Part shown: positions 2,939 through 32,383 of the stretch, in pieces
Position numbering within the stretch: the first letter of the stretch is position 1
Layout: the number at the start of each line of letters is the position of its first letter
Virus record (IMG/VR): IMGVR_UViG_3300033076_000387
Location: 1-33,280 of that record
DNA: 33,280 nt
Strand: one strand, 5' to 3'
Origin: a virus
Lineage: Duplodnaviria > Caudoviricetes
Position numbers and translations under genes: made by a program
The notes under the pieces: model-generated
What the model saw: only the letters and a program-made list of their open reading frames with translations
Database searches by the model: none
Told to the model about the DNA's origin: nothing

Positions 2939-3537
2939 AGTGGTGTTGCCTTTAAATATTTTTGTATTTGGGGGAATTTAATTTGTGCGAGCAAATAGTT
3001 TTCTTTGCTAATCTTAAACCAACGGTATTCTAATTCCAAATTGGTGCCAGTATCATATGCGTATTCTTGGACTAATTGTCTTAGTTCAAAACGATCTTCT
3101 ACTTCAAGCATAGCAAATACATGTTCGCTTATTGTGCAAAGATATTTCTCTTTAATGCGTTTGCTGGGTCTATTTGCCAATTTGATTGAGCGAGAGGTTC
3201 TACTGCGTTTTGGAATAGCAGTCATATGATCGGGATTACAACATTCTTTATTGCCGCATGTCATACGCACTTCAATTTTTTCCAGTACTGCATCTGGATA
3301 ATGTTCTGCGTATATAAGTCTATTGGCTTGGGTCATTTGTTGGTGATTATTTTTATATGCACCAAACAAATTTCCTTGGCGTCCTTTTGCTCCAATCCAT
3401 TTGTGGCAATTTTCTTGTAAAGAGCCTTTAGTTATTTTCTCATTGAGCTTATCTGTATTCCAAGACCAATTGCTATTTGTATGTGTTATTACTTTTCTTG
3501 GTCCTGGACTATATCCTGGTTTTCTTCCTCTTGGCAT
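2935..3537 (-). CDS. Degenerate HNH / Zn-binding-loop homing-endonuclease-like protein, probably nuclease-dead DNA binder
   Basis: CHKWIGAK...ANRLIY...VRMTCGNKECCNPDHM aligns by eye with CWNWIG...AHRFSY...VCHKCDNPKCVNPEHL of 5747..6262. SD AGGAG; TAAATA at 3558-3563. Confidence 0.65.
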   Translation of the reverse strand: MPRGRKPGYSPGPRKVITHTNSNWSWNTDKLNEKITKGSLQENCHKWIGAKGRQGNLFGAYKNNHQQMTQANRLIYAEHYPDAVLEKIEVRMTCGNKECCNPDHMTAIPKRSRTSRSIKLANRPSKRIKEKYLCTISEHVFAMLEVEDRFELRQLVQEYAYDTGTNLELEYRWFKISKENYLLAQIKFPQIQKYLKATPL

Positions 3538-3592
3538 TGCTTATTTCTCCTATACTTTATTTACCAGTGCTATTCATAGTAGCCATCTATTG

Positions 3593-3814
3593 CTACTTGC
3601 TTGTTATTCCCAATTGTTCTAAATAATGTTGTTGATCTGGGTTAATCCATGTAAACCAGTGGTCGTGTTGACAGCAATATAATCCTTTGTATAAAGGATT
3701 TTTAGTACTGTTATGTATAATCAAATCACAATGTTTGTGTTTGGGATTTCTACTTACTAATTTAAAAATATTAACTTTTGTGGGTTTTATTTTTACCCAA
3801 TCATCACTTGCCAT
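3593..3814 (-). CDS. Small His/Cys-rich putative Zn-binding protein
   Basis: HKHC...LYCCQHDHWFTW pattern. Confidence 0.65.
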   Translation of the reverse strand: MASDDWVKIKPTKVNIFKLVSRNPKHKHCDLIIHNSTKNPLYKGLYCCQHDHWFTWINPDQQHYLEQLGITSK

Positions 3815-3832
3815 TTCATTGCCTTTTTAAAA

Positions 3833-3876
3833 AGATGCGCTACACTATATGTTGTTTGTGTGTTTGTTGTATCAAC
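3833..3876. repeat. 44-bp perfect direct repeat, copy 1
   Basis: AGATGCGCTACACTATATGTTGTTTGTGTGTTTGTTGTATCAAC, identical to 4594-4637. Confidence 0.97.
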
Positions 3877-4913
3877 TCGTGTTCAAATTTTATATCAAAT
3901 CCAGTTCTGGTCCTTACAAATTCATTGAGTGCAATTTCATCAATTAAATTCTCGCAAGCCCAACCATCATGTTCTAAAAAATGTCTGTTGTTTGTTTCTC
4001 TTAAAAATTCAACTATTGAATCCAAAACAACTCGTTCTAAATCCCTATAAATCGCAGTTTTTTGTTTTCCTGAAATAGGTAAAGTTCTAGTAATGCCATT
4101 CTTATCTTTTTTAGTTCTTTTTTGGCATTGGGGTTTGATGCAACTCCACATGACTTTAATATCTTGTTTGAGTCCAATAATAAATTCGTGTTGTTGTAAA
4201 AACTTGATCTTTGCCAGATCTCCGTCTAATTCTAAAAAACTAGTACTTTGGCTATATGCACTTATTTGACCTCCTTGGAATAATCCATTTATAAGTCGTT
4301 TAATTACTTGTTCATCTGTTTCTGCTTGAATGGCTAATTGCTGTCTAATTGCTGTTCTGTTTTTGATGTAATCATTGATTTTGAACATATATTCGTCATT
4401 GCCCAATTGCTGACTATATTGTAATAACAATGTTGGGCAAGCGCATACTATATCATAATTGTGTTTGAATCCGGAATCAGCTAGTACTTGTTGTTTTTCT
4501 TGGCGTCTGTGATTTTGGAGCCAATGCCAACGACGACTACTTGAATCTTTGTAATTAATCCCTGTTTCTACTTCTTTTTGGAACTTATTGCTGAGATGCG
4601 CTACACTATATGTTGTTTGTGTGTTTGTTGTATCAACATTTTCCTCAAGGAATTTTAGTCCAGTTCCATTCAAGCGATACTTTTTTGTTATTTTCAAATC
4701 TTTGTTATATCTCTCATCCACACAAATCAATAACAAATCACGCAAATATCTACCTAGTTCATGTCGTTGACTGCCAAAGTTATCTTTGTGATGTATCCAT
4801 CTCGTGCCCAGTGCTTGTGGTCTGTCCTCACGCAAATACTTCTTACAAAAAGTAATGGCTTTGACAATTCGTTGTTGACATCTCTTATCACTAAAATTTG
4901 GTTGATATGTCAT
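3840..4913 (-). CDS. Minimal family-A polymerase-like protein (putative N-terminal winged-HTH plus Pol palm/fingers); candidate replication initiator or primase
   Basis: Motif A-like YDIVCACPTLL, motif B-like R..K.LINGLFQG and motif C-like FLEHDG in correct order. No exonuclease domains; only 357 aa. Confidence 0.6.
   Translation of the reverse strand: MTYQPNFSDKRCQQRIVKAITFCKKYLREDRPQALGTRWIHHKDNFGSQRHELGRYLRDLLLICVDERYNKDLKITKKYRLNGTGLKFLEENVDTTNTQTTYSVAHLSNKFQKEVETGINYKDSSSRRWHWLQNHRRQEKQQVLADSGFKHNYDIVCACPTLLLQYSQQLGNDEYMFKINDYIKNRTAIRQQLAIQAETDEQVIKRLINGLFQGGQISAYSQSTSFLELDGDLAKIKFLQQHEFIIGLKQDIKVMWSCIKPQCQKRTKKDKNGITRTLPISGKQKTAIYRDLERVVLDSIVEFLRETNNRHFLEHDGWACENLIDEIALNEFVRTRTGFDIKFEHELIQQTHKQHIV
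4594..4637. repeat. 44-bp perfect direct repeat, copy 2 (intragenic, inter-domain linker)
   Basis: Identical to 3833-3876; 761 bp offset, so it is read in a different frame. Confidence 0.97.
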
Positions 4914-5185
4914 ATGAATTCCTTTGCTTTATTGTCAAAGAGATCAACATATCTGCCTTGCAGTTTTTCCATAAAAACAAATTTATTGGCTGATTCAAGA
5001 TGAGTATAAAAACGCCTTTTGTATTCAATGGAATTCATATTATGGTCAAACATATAAGATTGCACAATATAATTTTGATTGAAACGAGTAGAATGAAATT
5101 TGAGTCGCTTGCGTGGGTTCTCTTTCATCAAAGCAAATTTTTCTTTGAGTTGTTCATATAAAATATCAACATTGGATTGCATCAT
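4910..5185 (-). CDS. Hypothetical protein (91 aa)
   Basis: SD GAGGA; ATGA overlap with the Pol-like gene. Confidence 0.75.
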   Translation of the reverse strand: MMQSNVDILYEQLKEKFALMKENPRKRLKFHSTRFNQNYIVQSYMFDHNMNSIEYKRRFYTHLESANKFVFMEKLQGRYVDLFDNKAKEFI

Positions 5186-5191
5186 CAGTCC

Positions 5192-5611
5192 TCAAAATAA
5201 ATCATTAAATGTTGTATTATGTTGGGGACGCAAATTGCCTAATTTGTATTCCCATTTAGTTTCGGCTCTAATTGCACTGGCTAACTCTTGTTGTATAACG
5301 CCATTTTTACCAGTGGTCCAATCAACTAGATTGCTGTCAACTAAATCCTTAATTGGGCAACGCATCATTTCGCCATGCTTTTTGTCATAGCCGCGGTGTT
5401 TGTTATACTTGGGATACGAACCCATGGGATGTGTTCTATTAAACAAGTACTGGATTTCTCCAACTGTAAAATAACCCTTTTCATTAAAATTGTCCAGGGC
5501 TCGTTTAAGTGCGGGCCAACCATTCTTATCCAAATCTGCGTCATACATATTTTTGAATCTGGTTTGGCAACTATCCAGCCATTGTGCTACTTTATAGGTA
5601 GGTGTTGTCAT
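5192..5611 (-). CDS. Hypothetical protein, first gene of the replication-type operon
   Basis: Strong SD AAGGAG directly after a consensus promoter. Confidence 0.8.
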   Translation of the reverse strand: MTTPTYKVAQWLDSCQTRFKNMYDADLDKNGWPALKRALDNFNEKGYFTVGEIQYLFNRTHPMGSYPKYNKHRGYDKKHGEMMRCPIKDLVDSNLVDWTTGKNGVIQQELASAIRAETKWEYKLGNLRPQHNTTFNDLF

Positions 5612-5628
5612 TGTGTGCTCCTTGTGTT

Positions 5629-5657
5629 ATTGTATATTTACTTATGCCTAATGTCAA
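5629..5657 (-). promoter_or_regulatory. Sigma70 promoter TTGACA-17-TACAAT with TAAATA embedded in its spacer
   Basis: Minus strand reads TTGACA ttaggcataagTAAATA TACAAT. Confidence 0.8.
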
Positions 5658-5712
5658 ATAACTTGGGCAAATAGGTAAATTTTCGGGGAAATGAAAAAGG
5701 TAAAAGAAAGAG

Positions 5713-5740
5713 TTGCACTTTTTCTTTCAGGTATTATAAT
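5713..5740 (+). promoter_or_regulatory. Sigma70-like promoter TTGCAC-16-TATAAT for a leaderless HNH mRNA
   Basis: TATAAT lies 6 nt before ATG 5747; no SD. Confidence 0.6.
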
Positions 5741-5746
5741 AAACAC

Positions 5747-6262
5747 ATGATTACACAAGAACTTTTAGATAAATTTAATACCAAATATAAAATTGACCCA
5801 GAAACTAATTGTTGGAATTGGATTGGTGGAACTCGCATTAAGAAATGGGGATATGGAGGTTTCAAGGTAAAAGGTTTTAACTGGCTTGCACATAGGTTTA
5901 GTTACTATGCATATAAAGGCGATCCTGGCAAATTATTAGTTTGTCATAAATGCGATAATCCTAAATGTGTAAATCCTGAACATTTATTTTTAGGAACTCA
6001 AAAAGATAATGTTGATGATATGATGTCTAAAGATAGACATGGTAGTGGTGGAAATTCGGGTTCTGGATTAAAAGGGACAGATAATCCTTCGGTTAAACTT
6101 ACAGAAGATAATGTTCTTGAAATACGAAGAATTGGAAGGATTGGAACTTCCGGACGAGGTGGTCGTGGGGGAAATACTGAAGAATTAGCAAAACAATTTG
6201 GAGTTAGTAAAGTTTCAATCGCTAATATCTTACACAGAAGAACTTGGAAGCATATAAAGTAA
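5747..6262 (+). CDS. HNH endonuclease (HNH_3 / Zn-loop type) with C-terminal HTH
   Basis: CWNWIG, AHRFSY, VCHKCDNPKCVNPEHLFLGTQKDN; C-terminal LAKQFGVSKVSIANILHRRTWKH. Confidence 0.92.
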   Translation: MITQELLDKFNTKYKIDPETNCWNWIGGTRIKKWGYGGFKVKGFNWLAHRFSYYAYKGDPGKLLVCHKCDNPKCVNPEHLFLGTQKDNVDDMMSKDRHGSGGNSGSGLKGTDNPSVKLTEDNVLEIRRIGRIGTSGRGGRGGNTEELAKQFGVSKVSIANILHRRTWKHIK

Positions 6263-6374
6263 AAAGGATACCTGACATTGCATCAGGTATCCTAGTGTAG
6301 GGGATCGGGAGATTTATAACTAGACAGAAAACACAATATTGGCAACACAAGGATAATGTCTAATTACGCCCTAC
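6260..6374 (-). ncRNA. Putative antisense small RNA C
   Basis: TAAATA 6380-6385. Nested stems TGTAGGG/CCCTACA and TAGACA/TGTCTA. Complement of AAGGAtaATGTCT. Ends in a terminator. Confidence 0.5.
6261..6293 (-). terminator. Intrinsic terminator
   Basis: 11-bp stem AGGATACCTGA/TCAGGTATCCT plus U-tract on the minus strand. Confidence 0.85.
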
Positions 6375-6382
6375 AAAATTAT

Positions 6383-6610
6383 TTATTCTTCTAATTCGTC
6401 TAACTCATCCTCAAGCTCTTTAAGTCTGCGTTTCTTCTTTTCCACTTCTTGGATAAGATTAAATTCTCGGCGGAGTTGATGTAATGCTTCTCCAACCTCA
6501 TTACCAGTTGGATAGCGACTATAGAATTCTTTGAGAATGGGTAGCAATTCTGCTACGCCTTCTGGGTTAGCTTCTTTAATGTAGAATTCAAATTTGAATT
6601 CAGGTTTCAT
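6383..6610 (-). CDS. Hypothetical protein with C-terminal coiled coil
   Basis: SD GGA; ATGA overlap with the upstream ORF. Confidence 0.75.
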   Translation of the reverse strand: MKPEFKFEFYIKEANPEGVAELLPILKEFYSRYPTGNEVGEALHQLRREFNLIQEVEKKKRRLKELEDELDELEE

Positions 6611-6819
6611 TTTGTTTTCTTTCCAAACATGTTATCACATACCATGGAAAAATGTTCTGCACGATTTTTTGGTTCAATTAGAATCCAAGTTAAGATCAAT
6701 GCAAAAACAAATGCACAAGCGTTAGTCACAGCTTTGAATACTTTGATGATTAACCAAAGACAAACGCCGATGAATATGGGCCAAAAAATAATGTTACCAA
6801 TAACATCTGCTGAAAACAT
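6607..6819 (-). CDS. Small membrane protein (two hydrophobic segments)
   Basis: SD AAGGAG, own sigma70 promoter. Confidence 0.75.
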   Translation of the reverse strand: MFSADVIGNIIFWPIFIGVCLWLIIKVFKAVTNACAFVFALILTWILIEPKNRAEHFSMVCDNMFGKKTK

Positions 6820-6845
6820 TGTGCTCTCCTTGTTGCGATATATGT

Positions 6846-6874
6846 ATTATGCTATAGATTGAGGTTTGTGTCTA
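6846..6874 (-). promoter_or_regulatory. Sigma70 promoter TAGACA-17-CATAAT
   Basis: Exact 17-bp spacing upstream of ATG 6819. Confidence 0.7.
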
Positions 6875-6885
6875 TTTGTTTTGGA

Positions 6886-6903
6886 TGTTGTGTTTTTACA
6901 ACA
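6886..6903. promoter_or_regulatory. Operator-like palindrome TGTTGT-N6-ACAACA
   Basis: Inverted repeat 11 bp upstream of the -35 box. Confidence 0.45.
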
Positions 6904-6942
6904 CTAATACTAAAAGCTGATGCTCATATTTTAGTACTATAG

Positions 6943-7023
6943 AAAAACCCCCGAACCTTGCGGAACGAGGGTATTCTAATTTTAGGATTACTTAAAGGGA
7001 ACAAATGTCGTCAAACTATTTGT
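6943..7023 (-). ncRNA. Putative antisense small RNA B
   Basis: TAAATA 7029-7034. Complement of AAAGGGAacaaATGTCG. 3' hairpin ACCCUCG-UU-CC-GCAA-GG-UU-CGGGGGU plus U-tract. Confidence 0.55.
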
Positions 7024-7045
7024 AAAAGTATTTATGCTAATTGTC

Positions 7046-7135
7046 AAAAGAAAACCCCTGAACCTTTTGGGAACAGGGGAATTCATTACCGAGGATTTTC
7101 ATGTCATGCTACTCATAGGCCAATACTTGTAGCAC
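7046..7135 (-). ncRNA. Putative antisense small RNA A
   Basis: TAAATA 7139-7144. 5' stem UGCUAC/GUAGCA. Complement of GAGGAttttcATGTCA. 3' hairpin CCCCUG-UU-CC-CAAAA-GG-UU-CAGGGG plus U-tract. Confidence 0.55.
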
Positions 7136-7147
7136 TTGTATTTAGTC

Positions 7148-7176
7148 AAAAAAGTCCCCGATGCCTAGTCGGGGAC
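7148..7176 (-). terminator. Intrinsic terminator ending the head/fibre operon
   Basis: GTCCCCGA/TCGGGGAC stem plus U6. Confidence 0.9.
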
Positions 7177-7205
7177 AAAGCTATATTAACACATTAAAAT
7201 ATGAC

Positions 7206-7712
7206 TCAGTGATTTTCACTAAAGTCATCAAAGACCTCGGCTCTTGCCGGGCCTAGTCGCTCCAACAACATCGTGTCGTCTTCGCTAAAATATTTACTGG
7301 ATAGGTTCGTAAAATATCCCATAGCAAATAAACGCTCGTTTAGTGTTAGGTCAGGTTGATTCTTTCTTGCATATAACATTGGTCTGCGTTTACGCAAATT
7401 AACATTTCTGCTACTGCACCAATACACTTCAAATTGTTGTTTTTCTAACCAAGTTAGAAATTCTGTTCGTTGTTCAACTGGAACGCAATACACGCTCCAC
7501 CACATGTTATCTTTTTGTTTGTAAAAAACTTGATCTTTTACAAATTGACATTCAATTGGCTTTGTTCCACATACAGCATAATTATAATCATCTGGTTCTG
7601 GTACGGCATATTCAGTTTCATATGCCGTGGGTCTAACCCAACTGATATGTTTACTAATTGCGATTCGTGGATCGTCTAACTTCTTTGTCTTTTTCAATCT
7701 TGGCGTTTTCAT
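7206..7712 (-). CDS. Hypothetical protein
   Basis: Likely start is ATG 7712 (MKTPRLKK), 5 nt after the variant motif CTAAATT. Confidence 0.7.
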   Translation of the reverse strand: MKTPRLKKTKKLDDPRIAISKHISWVRPTAYETEYAVPEPDDYNYAVCGTKPIECQFVKDQVFYKQKDNMWWSVYCVPVEQRTEFLTWLEKQQFEVYWCSSRNVNLRKRRPMLYARKNQPDLTLNERLFAMGYFTNLSSKYFSEDDTMLLERLGPARAEVFDDFSENH

Positions 7713-25148: not shown

Positions 25149-25188
25149 TATTTATGATAAATTTTATGCGATTGCTCCAGGTTAAATA
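25149..25188. promoter_or_regulatory. Divergent pair of TAAATA motifs
   Basis: Minus-strand TAAATA 25149-25154 faces TerS; plus-strand TAAATA 25183-25188 faces the GNAT. Confidence 0.65.
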
Positions 25189-25210
25189 TCATGCACTGAA
25201 AGGAACTGCA

Positions 25211-25702
25211 ATGAACTTTACTTGGACTCCCGCAACTGGTAATGATGTGGCCGACATCGTTGCCATGGCACAACAACATTTCCAAACTGAGATTGATACA
25301 ATCTTCAATCCCGATCCTGTTGCTTACAGTAGAAATATTACATTCGCTGTAATCAACCAATTCTATCTCCCAGGCACAGATCTCTTATCTGTTTGCAGAG
25401 ACGAAAATAATCGTCTGCTTGCTTATACCTGGGCCAAATCTAATGACAGAGCACCTTGGAGCGATGACCCTATGGTCGTTGTTCGCATGGCACATGTGGC
25501 ATTAGATTTATCTTCTAAAACCCGTATCCGTTTAATATTAGACATGTTAGAGCTTTGGGAAAACTTTGCTCAATTCTCTAAAATGCCTATTATCTGTAGT
25601 ACTACTATGCGACGCGAACAAGATGCTTTTTTAAAACTTCATGCTCGCGTTGGTTATGATATCCGCGGTTCGTATGCTTACAAACGAATCACTCTAAAGT
25701 AA
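25211..25702 (+). CDS. GNAT-fold acetyltransferase-like protein
   Basis: W.PAT..DV.DIV.MA start, LLAYTWA strand, LHARVGY end. Start moved to 25211 (SD AAGGA). Confidence 0.65.
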   Translation: MNFTWTPATGNDVADIVAMAQQHFQTEIDTIFNPDPVAYSRNITFAVINQFYLPGTDLLSVCRDENNRLLAYTWAKSNDRAPWSDDPMVVVRMAHVALDLSSKTRIRLILDMLELWENFAQFSKMPIICSTTMRREQDAFLKLHARVGYDIRGSYAYKRITLK

Positions 25703-26123
25703 CTCTCAACATCCAGCACAACTTGCCCAGGGCCAATACGCGGTCTTGGGCGTAGTTAGCAATCTCATCGTGCTCTTCTAATTCTGCAACTTCAATCAAT
25801 TCTTCATAACATTCTTTGAGATGTTTAACATCATCATAGACTGCTGTAATCATTTCTAATGCCGAACCATTCATGGGCATAGGAGGAATATGACTATCAT
25901 CTAACATAGCTTGTGGATCATCGGGCATGAACTCATATATGGTTCTTAGCAATTCACCAATAGTGTCAATTTGACCTTGCAAGTCTTCATATACCTTACC
26001 CAATAGTTCATGATCCGCAGTAAAGTTGCGTCCCACAATGTTAACATGGGCGATGTGGCTGCGAATATACGCAACAAAGTTGTCATTAAAGACTTGTGTT
26101 AGTTGTTCTGCTGTTGTCATCAT
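25689..26123 (-). CDS. dps: Dps / ferritin-like protein
   Basis: HVNIVGRNF..DHELL...YE....IDTIGELLR and terminal K..WML motifs. Confidence 0.88.
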   Translation of the reverse strand: MMTTAEQLTQVFNDNFVAYIRSHIAHVNIVGRNFTADHELLGKVYEDLQGQIDTIGELLRTIYEFMPDDPQAMLDDSHIPPMPMNGSALEMITAVYDDVKHLKECYEELIEVAELEEHDEIANYAQDRVLALGKLCWMLRVTLE

Positions 26124-31933: not shown

Positions 31934-32374
31934 TTAAATTTCCTTTACAGCATTGAAGCCGCGTATTTTATATCCAAGTCTGCGATAGTATTCGGCTACC
32001 GCGTCTACATTGTCTCCGGTTGTTTGTCCAAGCCATAACTCTTTTGCTTTATTTGATCTTGCCCATGATTCTAATTCTTCAATTAGAGCCTTAGCAACAT
32101 CATGGCGACGATACGCCGGAATAACAAACACACCTATATCAGTTACACGCAGAACATCATTAAAAACATTTTCATGTAGGATGCCGCATGTATAACCTAT
32201 TAACTTACCATCCAGCAAGGCTAACATTACTAATGATTTTGGACTTGTCACAAGTGCTCTTATCTTTGGCACTGTGGCAACTCCTAATCCTGTGTGCGTT
32301 AACATGATATCTGTTAACGCTTTAATTGCTGCTATATCTTCTTCTACTGCTGGTCTATACACTATTTGGGTCAT
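31934..32374 (-). CDS. GNAT acetyltransferase
   Basis: YRPAVEEDI, VFVIPAYRRHDVAKALI and YYRRLGY motifs. Start ATG 32374, 6 nt after TAAATA 32381-32386. Confidence 0.88.
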   Translation of the reverse strand: MTQIVYRPAVEEDIAAIKALTDIMLTHTGLGVATVPKIRALVTSPKSLVMLALLDGKLIGYTCGILHENVFNDVLRVTDIGVFVIPAYRRHDVAKALIEELESWARSNKAKELWLGQTTGDNVDAVAEYYRRLGYKIRGFNAVKEI

Positions 32375-32383
32375 ATGCAATAT

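What the first reader, a model, noticed from the sequence alone, without database searches (positions are those of the whole stretch)
3840..4913. 357-aa minimal family-A polymerase-like protein as the only replication gene
Motifs A, B and C are present, but there are no exonuclease domains and no adjacent helicase. A basic ~90-aa N-terminal domain ending ...KITKKYRLN looks like a winged helix. It recalls the TV-Pol group related to PolA/T7 RNAP, proposed as primase-polymerases. It may be an origin-specific primase that hands over to a helper or host replisome. An alternative is a tiny RNA polymerase reading TAAATA, which would make the phage transcriptionally autonomous and be equally novel.
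Basis: partly seen in the sequence, partly recalled or inferred. Interest (0 to 1): 0.72.

Follow-up and report, generated by a model that had tools for sequence, protein, structure and literature searches.

The report
Phage starter polymerase with twin sites
Many small uncultured phages carry a stripped-down DNA-polymerase-like protein whose gene holds two copies of a short DNA site that changes in step with the protein, so it likely binds that site and lays the primer that starts genome copying by borrowed machinery.

Summary
The 357-aa ORF (4913-3840, minus strand) is real. Residues 100-354 fold like a family-A polymerase, closest to TV-Pols. The catalytic Arg, Asp, Lys and His-Asp are invariant in 213 of 213 homologues. 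There is no exonuclease, and the residues Pol I uses to exclude ribonucleotides are lost.

The 44-bp repeat (4594-4637, 3833-3876) is a conserved site. It sits in the gene's linker and at its 3' end in 35 of 66 loci, and a frozen profile found it again in held-out loci (62 hits beside the gene, 1 elsewhere). One base of the site changes with residue 69 in the predicted wing (Trp with T 13 of 13; Tyr with G 48 of 51), on several branches.

In capsid relatives the same slot holds a primase plus helicase instead (helicase in 0 of 23 versus 9 of 17 genomes).

Best reading: an origin-binding primase-initiator handing over to a host or helper replisome. An RNA polymerase for TAAATA is rejected, because TAAATA is as common in relatives without the gene. 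TAAATA has T4-late geometry, yet 0 of 49 near-complete genomes encode gp55, so T4-like helper dependence is possible. No activity has been measured.

The parts
3840..4913 (-). 357-aa protein: N-terminal winged-helix-like domain plus minimal family-A (TV-Pol-like) polymerase domain
   Evidence: family of 1664 clusters at 50% identity, E<=0.001
4638..4913 (-). N-terminal domain, aa 1-92; residue Y69 (4709-4707) in the predicted wing covaries with one base of the site
3852..4616 (-). polymerase domain, aa 100-354: R127, Q133, D154, R190, K205, Y289, E293, H315, D316; no exonuclease
4594..4637 (-). site copy 1 in the interdomain linker (core TAGTGT at 4608-4603, G-poor tract 5' of it); candidate origin/priming site
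3833..3876 (-). site copy 2, identical over 44 bp, across the stop codon and read in another frame
3593..3814 (-). 73-aa zinc-finger-like ORF, a frequent but not obligate neighbour; function unknown
   Evidence: about 45 of 113 loci; 12 of 28 genomes with the gene versus 3 of 21 without, p=0.06
4910..5185 (-). 91-aa ORF upstream; part of the 3570-5194 block that is exchanged in co-occurring strains
   Evidence: joint 3569 to 5195; loose ends at 3569 and 5192-5195; one neighbour homologue only
5629..5657 (-). sigma70-type promoter match (TTGACA-17-TACAAT, 11 of 12) overlapping a TAAATA box at 5640-5635, ahead of the three-gene run ending in the polymerase-like gene
   Evidence: single consensus match, and the number of sites in the region equals chance (9 versus 10.3)

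Best explanation
The protein is a minimal family-A polymerase that likely works as an origin-binding primase-initiator: its N-terminal domain would bind a 22-bp site present twice, in and just behind its own gene, and its palm would make a short primer that a host or helper replisome is inferred to extend. Shown: the fold; invariant catalytic residues; loss of the exonuclease and of the Pol I sugar gate; the twin site with consensus (CCC/ATA)TA[G/T]TGT-N3-[A/G][C/G][A/T](AG/TC)T and a G-poor tract of about 20 nt on its 5' side; covariation of residue 69 with the G/T base; and mutual replacement with primase-helicase pairs in one genome slot. Inferred: direct binding, local melting, de novo priming (probably with ribonucleotides, possibly on the G-poor strand), and hand-over. 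Why there are two copies, usually direct and sometimes inverted, is not explained.
For: (1) Active site: R127, D154, R190, K205, Y289, E293, H315 and D316 in 213 of 213 sequences. The E710 place is Ala in 183, Cys in 20, Glu in 2; the F762 place is Asn in 156, Thr in 45. CcPol, which chooses dNTPs, keeps both residues (PMC7581432 passage). (2) Nearest named viral folds are virophage helicase/primase/polymerase proteins. (3) Slot replacement: of 10 capsid relatives read in full, G060, G061, G062, G063 and G065 have a primase plus a DUF5906/VapE ATPase in this slot, G069 has the ATPase at its record end, and G053 has another standalone TV-Pol-like gene. DUF5906 occurs in 0 of 23 genomes with the gene and 9 of 17 without (Fisher p 9e-5; genomes not independent). 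The 3570-5194 block is swapped among co-occurring strains. (4) Site: linker-to-3'-end repeat in 35 of 66 dereplicated loci versus 0 of 66 control maxima. Held-out loci: 62 hits in 89 kb beside the gene versus 1 in 164 kb elsewhere, and repeats in 22 of 47. No hit in 10 control genomes. An island member keeps three copies (L209). (5) Covariation: residue 69 is the top of 357 columns (z 23.6, next 9.5, shuffles not corrected for kinship); Trp with T 13 of 13, Tyr with G 48 of 51, Phe mixed, and Trp+T falls at about seven separate places on a 75-row tree. (6) Precedent for the job: ColE2 Rep and RepB' (PMC4538821 passages).
Against: No activity was measured. The site was not detected in 19 of 66 and 15 of 47 loci, including copies in T4-like and jumbo phage contigs that have their own replication genes. 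Three of 10 capsid relatives (G050, G054, G055) have neither this gene nor a recognised primase, so the slot can be empty or hold unknown proteins. Motif B lacks the canonical Arg and Tyr, so the chemistry may differ. No plasmid uses it as sole Rep: the window protein had no match in 72,556 plasmids, and the two distant plasmid relatives have a separate RepA. Three Tyr rows carry T, and Phe is mixed 4 G, 6 T, 1 C. Direct orientation primes one strand only, unlike RSF1010. Third-position skew showed no switch at the site.
Confidence: 0.62

Rival explanations
1. A site-specific mini RNA polymerase: the site is its promoter, and it makes a longer RNA (an R-loop between the copies, or an antisense regulator of its own gene) rather than a short primer.
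For: The sugar gate is small, like T7 RNAP G542. T7 RNAP scores Z 9.2. The site has promoter-like length, and the outer copy often ends in a T run. The opposite strand reads TACA[C/A]T, a -10-like hexamer.
Against: DNA polymerases outrank RNA polymerases (Z 11.9 versus 9.2). The motif-B Tyr (T7 Y639) is absent. The site lies only at this gene, never before other genes. Slot replacement is with primases.
Confidence: 0.14
2. A self-priming replicase that copies the whole genome itself by strand displacement from the site.
For: Complete catalytic set. Iyer 2008 proposed both primase and polymerase activity for TV-Pols. No other polymerase in 11 genomes.
Against: No proofreading domain, helicase or recognised SSB for a 28-37 kb genome; the E710, F762 and Y766 equivalents are lost; relatives with no polymerase-like gene at all exist.
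Confidence: 0.1
3. A selfish cassette that copies or spreads itself through the twin site and is dispensable for phage replication.
For: Found across unrelated virion modules, between core genes of T4-like phages and beside integrases or recombinases in bacterial contigs. Swapped among strains and flanked by homing endonucleases.
Against: It excludes the primase-helicase pair rather than adding to it. One copy per genome. No joint for a circle or deletion between the copies in four runs' contigs (contigs drop rare forms).
Confidence: 0.1
4. A tiny RNA polymerase that reads the TAAATA boxes and makes the phage transcriptionally autonomous.
For: TAAATA is the top upstream hexamer in the 11 genomes with the gene (61 observed, 5.6 expected), and none encodes a gp55-like sigma.
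Against: TAAATA is more frequent in 10 relatives lacking the gene (105 of 324 versus 61 of 335). Island members have 0-5 TAAATA per strand in 8-17 kb. The residue-base covariation points to a different site.
Confidence: 0.02

Closest known systems
TV-Pol family (Iyer, Abhiman, Aravind 2008, PMC2579912), including virophage TVpol-helicases
   Same: Minimal family-A core without nuclease; beta-hairpin Arg and two Asp; mobile elements and small viruses; displaces prim-pol modules. The family profile hits resolvase-linked 500-aa plasmid proteins at E 4e-31 and 6e-28 (Z=1).
   Different: No D5 helicase fused or adjacent; a 92-aa winged-helix-like domain instead of the larger helical N-domain; no RxxxK; a conserved twin DNA site, which the parts of the paper I read do not describe for TV-Pols.
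CcPol-MP / PolA-SSB primases (PMC7581432, PMC10061031)
   Same: A family-A domain used as a primase in a mobile element.
   Different: CcPol needs a separate OB-fold protein, keeps E710 and F762, uses dNTPs and works with a helicase. Here the gate residues are lost, the DNA-binding domain is fused, and there is no helicase.
ColE2 Rep and RSF1010 RepB' (PMC4538821 passages)
   Same: The job: origin-specific primer synthesis extended by a borrowed polymerase; RSF1010 has two recognition sites.
   Different: Those are AEP-fold plasmid enzymes; this is a family-A fold in phages, with the site inside the gene and mostly direct copies.
T7-type single-subunit RNA polymerases
   Same: Same superfamily, small residue at the sugar gate, a roughly 22-bp cognate site.
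   Different: 357 versus 883 aa; no motif-B Tyr; the site occurs only at its own gene; the family profile does not hit T7 RNAP.
T4-type late promoters read by gp55 (PMC2984593, PMC3184105 passages)
   Same: TAAATA core; the start codon peaks 11 nt from the first T (26 cases in 21 genomes), as expected for leaderless transcripts from a -11 to -6 box (T4 numbering recalled).
   Different: No gp55-like gene in 49 near-complete genomes; the preceding bases are mostly AC or GC, not TA. Independent of the polymerase-like gene.

Membership tests
Family-A polymerase superfamily | Right-hand fold with RRM palm, thumb and fingers | tested here: met
   (Klenow Z 11.9, rmsd 4.5, 228 aligned)
Family-A polymerase superfamily | Motif A Asp and motif C His-Asp | tested here: met
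   D154, H315, D316 in 213 of 213
DNA Pol I-type DNA polymerases | 3'-5' exonuclease domain; motif B RxxxK...YG; steric gate E710 | tested here: not met
   no exonuclease; Arg and Tyr absent; gate is Ala or Cys
TV-Pol | Thumb coiled coil, beta-hairpin Arg, two palm Asp, no nuclease | tested here: met
   R127, D154, D316 invariant; virophage proteins are the nearest named folds
TV-Pol | Fingers with conserved Asp and RxxxK | tested here: not met
   K205 invariant; position 201 variable; position 200 is Asp in 80 of 213; an invariant Arg lies at 190 instead
TV-Pol | Linked to a D5 helicase, or to a resolvase/integrase | tested here: inconclusive
   no DUF5906 in 23 genomes; integrase or recombinase neighbours for the 5 distant bacterial-contig members scanned, not for the phage members
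TV-Pol | Sequence match to members named by Iyer 2008 | tested here: inconclusive
   the paper's supplement was unreadable; the link is to unnamed plasmid proteins of the described architecture
PolA-SSB (CcPol-MP) primases | Adjacent OB-fold partner, helicase, E710/F762 kept | tested here: not met
   gate lost; no helicase; the commonest neighbour is zinc-finger-like; the 91-aa neighbour was not folded
Origin-specific primases (ColE2 Rep, RepB') | AEP fold | tested here: not met
   the fold is family A
Origin-specific primases (ColE2 Rep, RepB') | Cognate cis site specific to the protein | tested here: met
   twin site and residue-base covariation; comparative evidence, binding not measured
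Origin-specific primases (ColE2 Rep, RepB') | De novo primer synthesis at the site | not testable with these tools
   needs an in vitro assay
Winged-helix domain | Three-helix bundle with beta-hairpin wing | tested here: inconclusive
   topology fits; Atlas matches under the bar; domain-only model poor, pLDDT 48; no relevant PDB sequence hit
T7-like RNA polymerases | Cognate promoter upstream of transcribed genes; motif B Tyr | tested here: not met
   site only at own gene; Tyr absent; TAAATA independent of the gene

The most novel reading that the evidence does not exclude
These are virophage-like parasites of T4-type phages: small phages with their own virion genes that borrow a co-infecting T4-like phage's gp55 to read their TAAATA promoters and its replisome to copy their DNA. 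This winged-helix TV-Pol is the one-protein starter that primes at its twin site and hands over, the bacterial counterpart of the TVpol of Sputnik-type virophages. In favour: no gp55-like sigma in 49 near-complete genomes, T4-late promoter geometry, and the same gene family inside T4-like genomes next to gp55.
Probability: 0.28. Interest if true: 0.92.

Novelty: new variant of a known kind. Interest (0 to 1): 0.76.

Why it matters
It would be a one-gene phage replicon built on the family-A fold, doing the job that ColE2 Rep does with an unrelated fold. It makes the 2008 proposal that TV-Pols are primases directly testable: the protein is small, it comes with a defined 44-bp substrate, and the data predict a specificity switch (residue 69 Tyr with G, Trp with T). 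The family is large (1664 clusters) and has no Pfam or PHROG match and no cultured phage hit. If the TAAATA promoters need a T4-like helper, an abundant group of small aquatic phages would be parasites of other phages.

Tried and rejected
Searches with no match: Pfam, PHROGs and PDB sequence searches of the protein or its alignment. No cultured phage hit with the window protein or the L208 member. No plasmid hit with the window protein. Rfam found nothing in 3000-7500.

N-terminal domain: the domain-only model was too poor to search; its profile hit only spectrin, taken as chance.

Sigma searches: PF04542 and TIGR02394 are not valid tests for gp55; TIGR02394 missed G045, which has one. with phrog_234 replaces them.

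Site structure: a conserved hairpin was rejected by inspection, since many variants cannot pair; no folding was run. A resemblance to T7/SP6 promoter cores or the tRNA D-arm is recalled and untested. An archaeal TATA box was rejected because there is no preceding TT. Codon constraint cannot explain the site, because the second copy is in another frame or outside the ORF in 21 of 30 loci. Skew analysis was uninformative. The orientation tally mixed 'inverted' with 'absent' and was not used.

Other: no RNA holder was listed. A window-flank pattern scan found nothing. Complex prediction of the protein with the 73-aa neighbour was not available. The 73-aa family has no PDB or consistent PHROG match.

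Literature: no description of this family or site turned up in nine searches of an open-access library; subscription papers are not covered.

Full report
The observation. The window is a phage record of 33,280 bases, linear and 93% complete, with SU10-type capsid and portal and a terminase. The ORF at 4913-3840 on the minus strand encodes 357 aa with no Pfam, PHROG or PDB sequence match. It has 68 full-length homologues in one search and 1664 clusters at E<=0.001 in a profile search. The AlphaFold model (pLDDT 92) matches family-A polymerases over residues 100-354. In the viral library the best named matches are virophage helicase/primase/polymerase proteins, after uncharacterised phage proteins.

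Active site. In 213 aligned sequences R127, D154, R190, K205, Y289, E293, H315 and D316 are invariant. By motif spacing against E. coli Pol I, R127 corresponds to R668, D154 to D705, K205 to K758 and H315/D316 to H881/D882. The E710 place is Ala or Cys, the F762 place Asn or Thr, the Y766 place variable, and R754 has no equivalent at -4. These assignments rest on spacing, not on a superposition. CcPol keeps E710 and F762 (PMC7581432 passage), so this family likely selects sugars differently. The family profile hits two resolvase-linked 500-aa plasmid proteins of TV-Pol architecture over the polymerase domain, but not Pol I or T7 RNAP.

The twin site. The 44-bp exact repeat lies in the interdomain linker and across the stop codon. 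It far exceeds shuffles and is seen in public assemblies, of which one may be the window's source. From the 78 viral loci plus the window, 68 remained at under 90% identity and 66 had enough flank. Of these, 35 have a linker-to-3'-end repeat (32 direct, 4 inverted, one both) against 0 control maxima. A profile trained on these loci hit 47 of 66. Frozen and applied to 47 held-out loci (from 81, after removing near-copies and short flanks), it gave 62 hits in 89 kb beside the gene and 1 in 164 kb elsewhere; 15 of 47 had none. It does not hit 10 control genomes. Copies within a genome stay alike for about 20 nt 5' of the core, a tract with 3% G against 21% overall, and the second copy is in another frame or outside the ORF in 21 of 30 loci. 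Two adjacent bases switch together between AG and TC (137 of 141 sites), even within a genome, which suggests shape or minor-groove reading (inference from recalled principles). The window's ATA-type site marks one clade of 16 (113 rows).

Protein-site covariation. Among 75 loci with a site hit, the G/T base of TA[G/T]TGT covaries best with residue 69 in the predicted wing, about 100 bp away from the site (z 23.6, next 9.5; shuffles ignore kinship). Trp goes with T in 13 of 13, Tyr with G in 48 of 51, and Phe is mixed. Trp+T rows fall at about seven separate places on a FastTree tree, and starred branches force at least 7 changes of the site label. This is the strongest sign that the N-terminal domain reads the site. 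No formal independent-pairs test was run.

Context. In 10 complete genomes with terminal repeats plus the window, this is the only gene shared by all 11, across at least three unrelated virion modules. Pfam scans covered all 178 cluster representatives of 70-720 aa; 25 longer ORFs and clusters already scanned through the window were left out. They found no primase, polymerase or replicative helicase. Exceptions: a weak DEAD hit in G036, an AAA protein in G031 with a homologue in G012, and a DnaT_2 hit inside the virion genes of G031. Of 21 near-complete capsid relatives only one had a weak match. Ten read in full show the same slot filled by a primase plus a DUF5906/VapE ATPase in five, the ATPase at a record end in one, another standalone TV-Pol-like gene in one, and nothing recognised in three; that DUF5906/VapE are superfamily-3 helicases is recalled. 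DUF5906 is in 0 of 23 genomes with the gene and 9 of 17 without. Contigs of public runs show the 3570-5194 block replaced in co-occurring strains. Distant members lie beside integrases in bacterial contigs, and one keeps three copies of the site. Others lie in T4-like or jumbo phage contigs without a detected site. A 73-aa zinc-finger-like ORF is the commonest neighbour, in about 45 of 113 loci, but its genome-wide association is weak (p 0.06, with a profile built from these loci).

TAAATA. It is the top upstream hexamer, with start codons peaking 11 nt away, like T4-type late promoters (PMC2984593 and PMC3184105 passages). It is more frequent in relatives without the gene, so this protein is not its reader. 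A gp55-like sigma is absent from 49 of 49 near-complete genomes and present in 3 of 5 partial larger records used as controls. A helper phage is one explanation; an unrecognised phage factor or an unusual host sigma is not excluded. Earlier scan notes split on this point. A sigma70-type match precedes the gene's operon, so it could be expressed without a helper.

Verdict. Most likely an origin-binding primase-initiator on the family-A fold (0.62). It works like ColE2 Rep or RepB' (PMC4538821 passages) and is akin to TV-Pols (PMC2579912, parts 1-2 of 3 read; its supplement was unreadable and may hold alignments bearing on membership) and to CcPol (PMC10061031, part 1 of 5; PMC7581432, passages). 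It fails the RxxxK, helicase-link and SSB-partner features, so I file it as a new variant, not a plain member. PMC11348598 (passages) and 10.1101/2024.09.03.610885 (term search, no hits) did not describe it; PMC6015842 was seen only as a listing. Binding, priming, nucleotide choice, direction and the partner replisome are all inferred.

Noticed in passing
window 48-32386, minus strand (15 TAAATA boxes); G003-G071: T4-late-type TAAATA boxes with leaderless geometry precede many genes in all 21 genomes read, yet none of 49 near-complete genomes encodes a gp55-like sigma; possible dependence on a T4-like helper.
   Followed up: partly
L074:9986-11116, L072, L265:5899-7083, L066:2906-3955: The same gene family sits between core genes of T4-like phages (near gp55 and gp46/47) and of a jumbo phage, without a detected site; suggests gene exchange with the small phages.
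   Followed up: partly
L040:4263-4919: A larger, 59% GC relative with the same terminase family encodes its own gp55-like sigma and has no TAAATA in the 16.6-kb locus.
   Followed up: no
L195:15521-17263 (G053): A second standalone TV-Pol-like protein (581 aa, different N-terminus, no helicase) fills the same slot.
   Followed up: partly
L184:13420-14262 (G055), L197:5908-6570 (G054), L205:4408-5214: Unknown 221-281 aa ORFs occupy the replication slot in relatives with no recognised primase; candidate further initiators.
   Followed up: no
window 5747-6262: The HNH endonuclease gene is absent in some co-occurring strains (joint 5699 to 6293): a mobile homing endonuclease.
   Followed up: partly
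window 25154-25702 (+): A 182-aa unknown gene, the one conserved plus-strand gene, with its own TAAATA box; present in 12 of 14 genomes with this capsid type.
   Followed up: no
window 25689-26123 and 31934-32380: Ferritin/Dps-like protein (14 of 14 genomes of this type) and a GNAT acetyltransferase within the virion gene block.
   Followed up: no
L208-L212: Distant members lie in islands with tyrosine integrases or serine recombinases (Janthinobacterium isolate and four MAG contigs); L210 and L211 have a different short repeat pair behind the gene.
   Followed up: partly
L011, L048, L053, L233, L290 (just downstream of the gene): A small FGK[Y/H]KG-motif protein replaces, or is fused to, the zinc-finger neighbour.
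   Followed up: no
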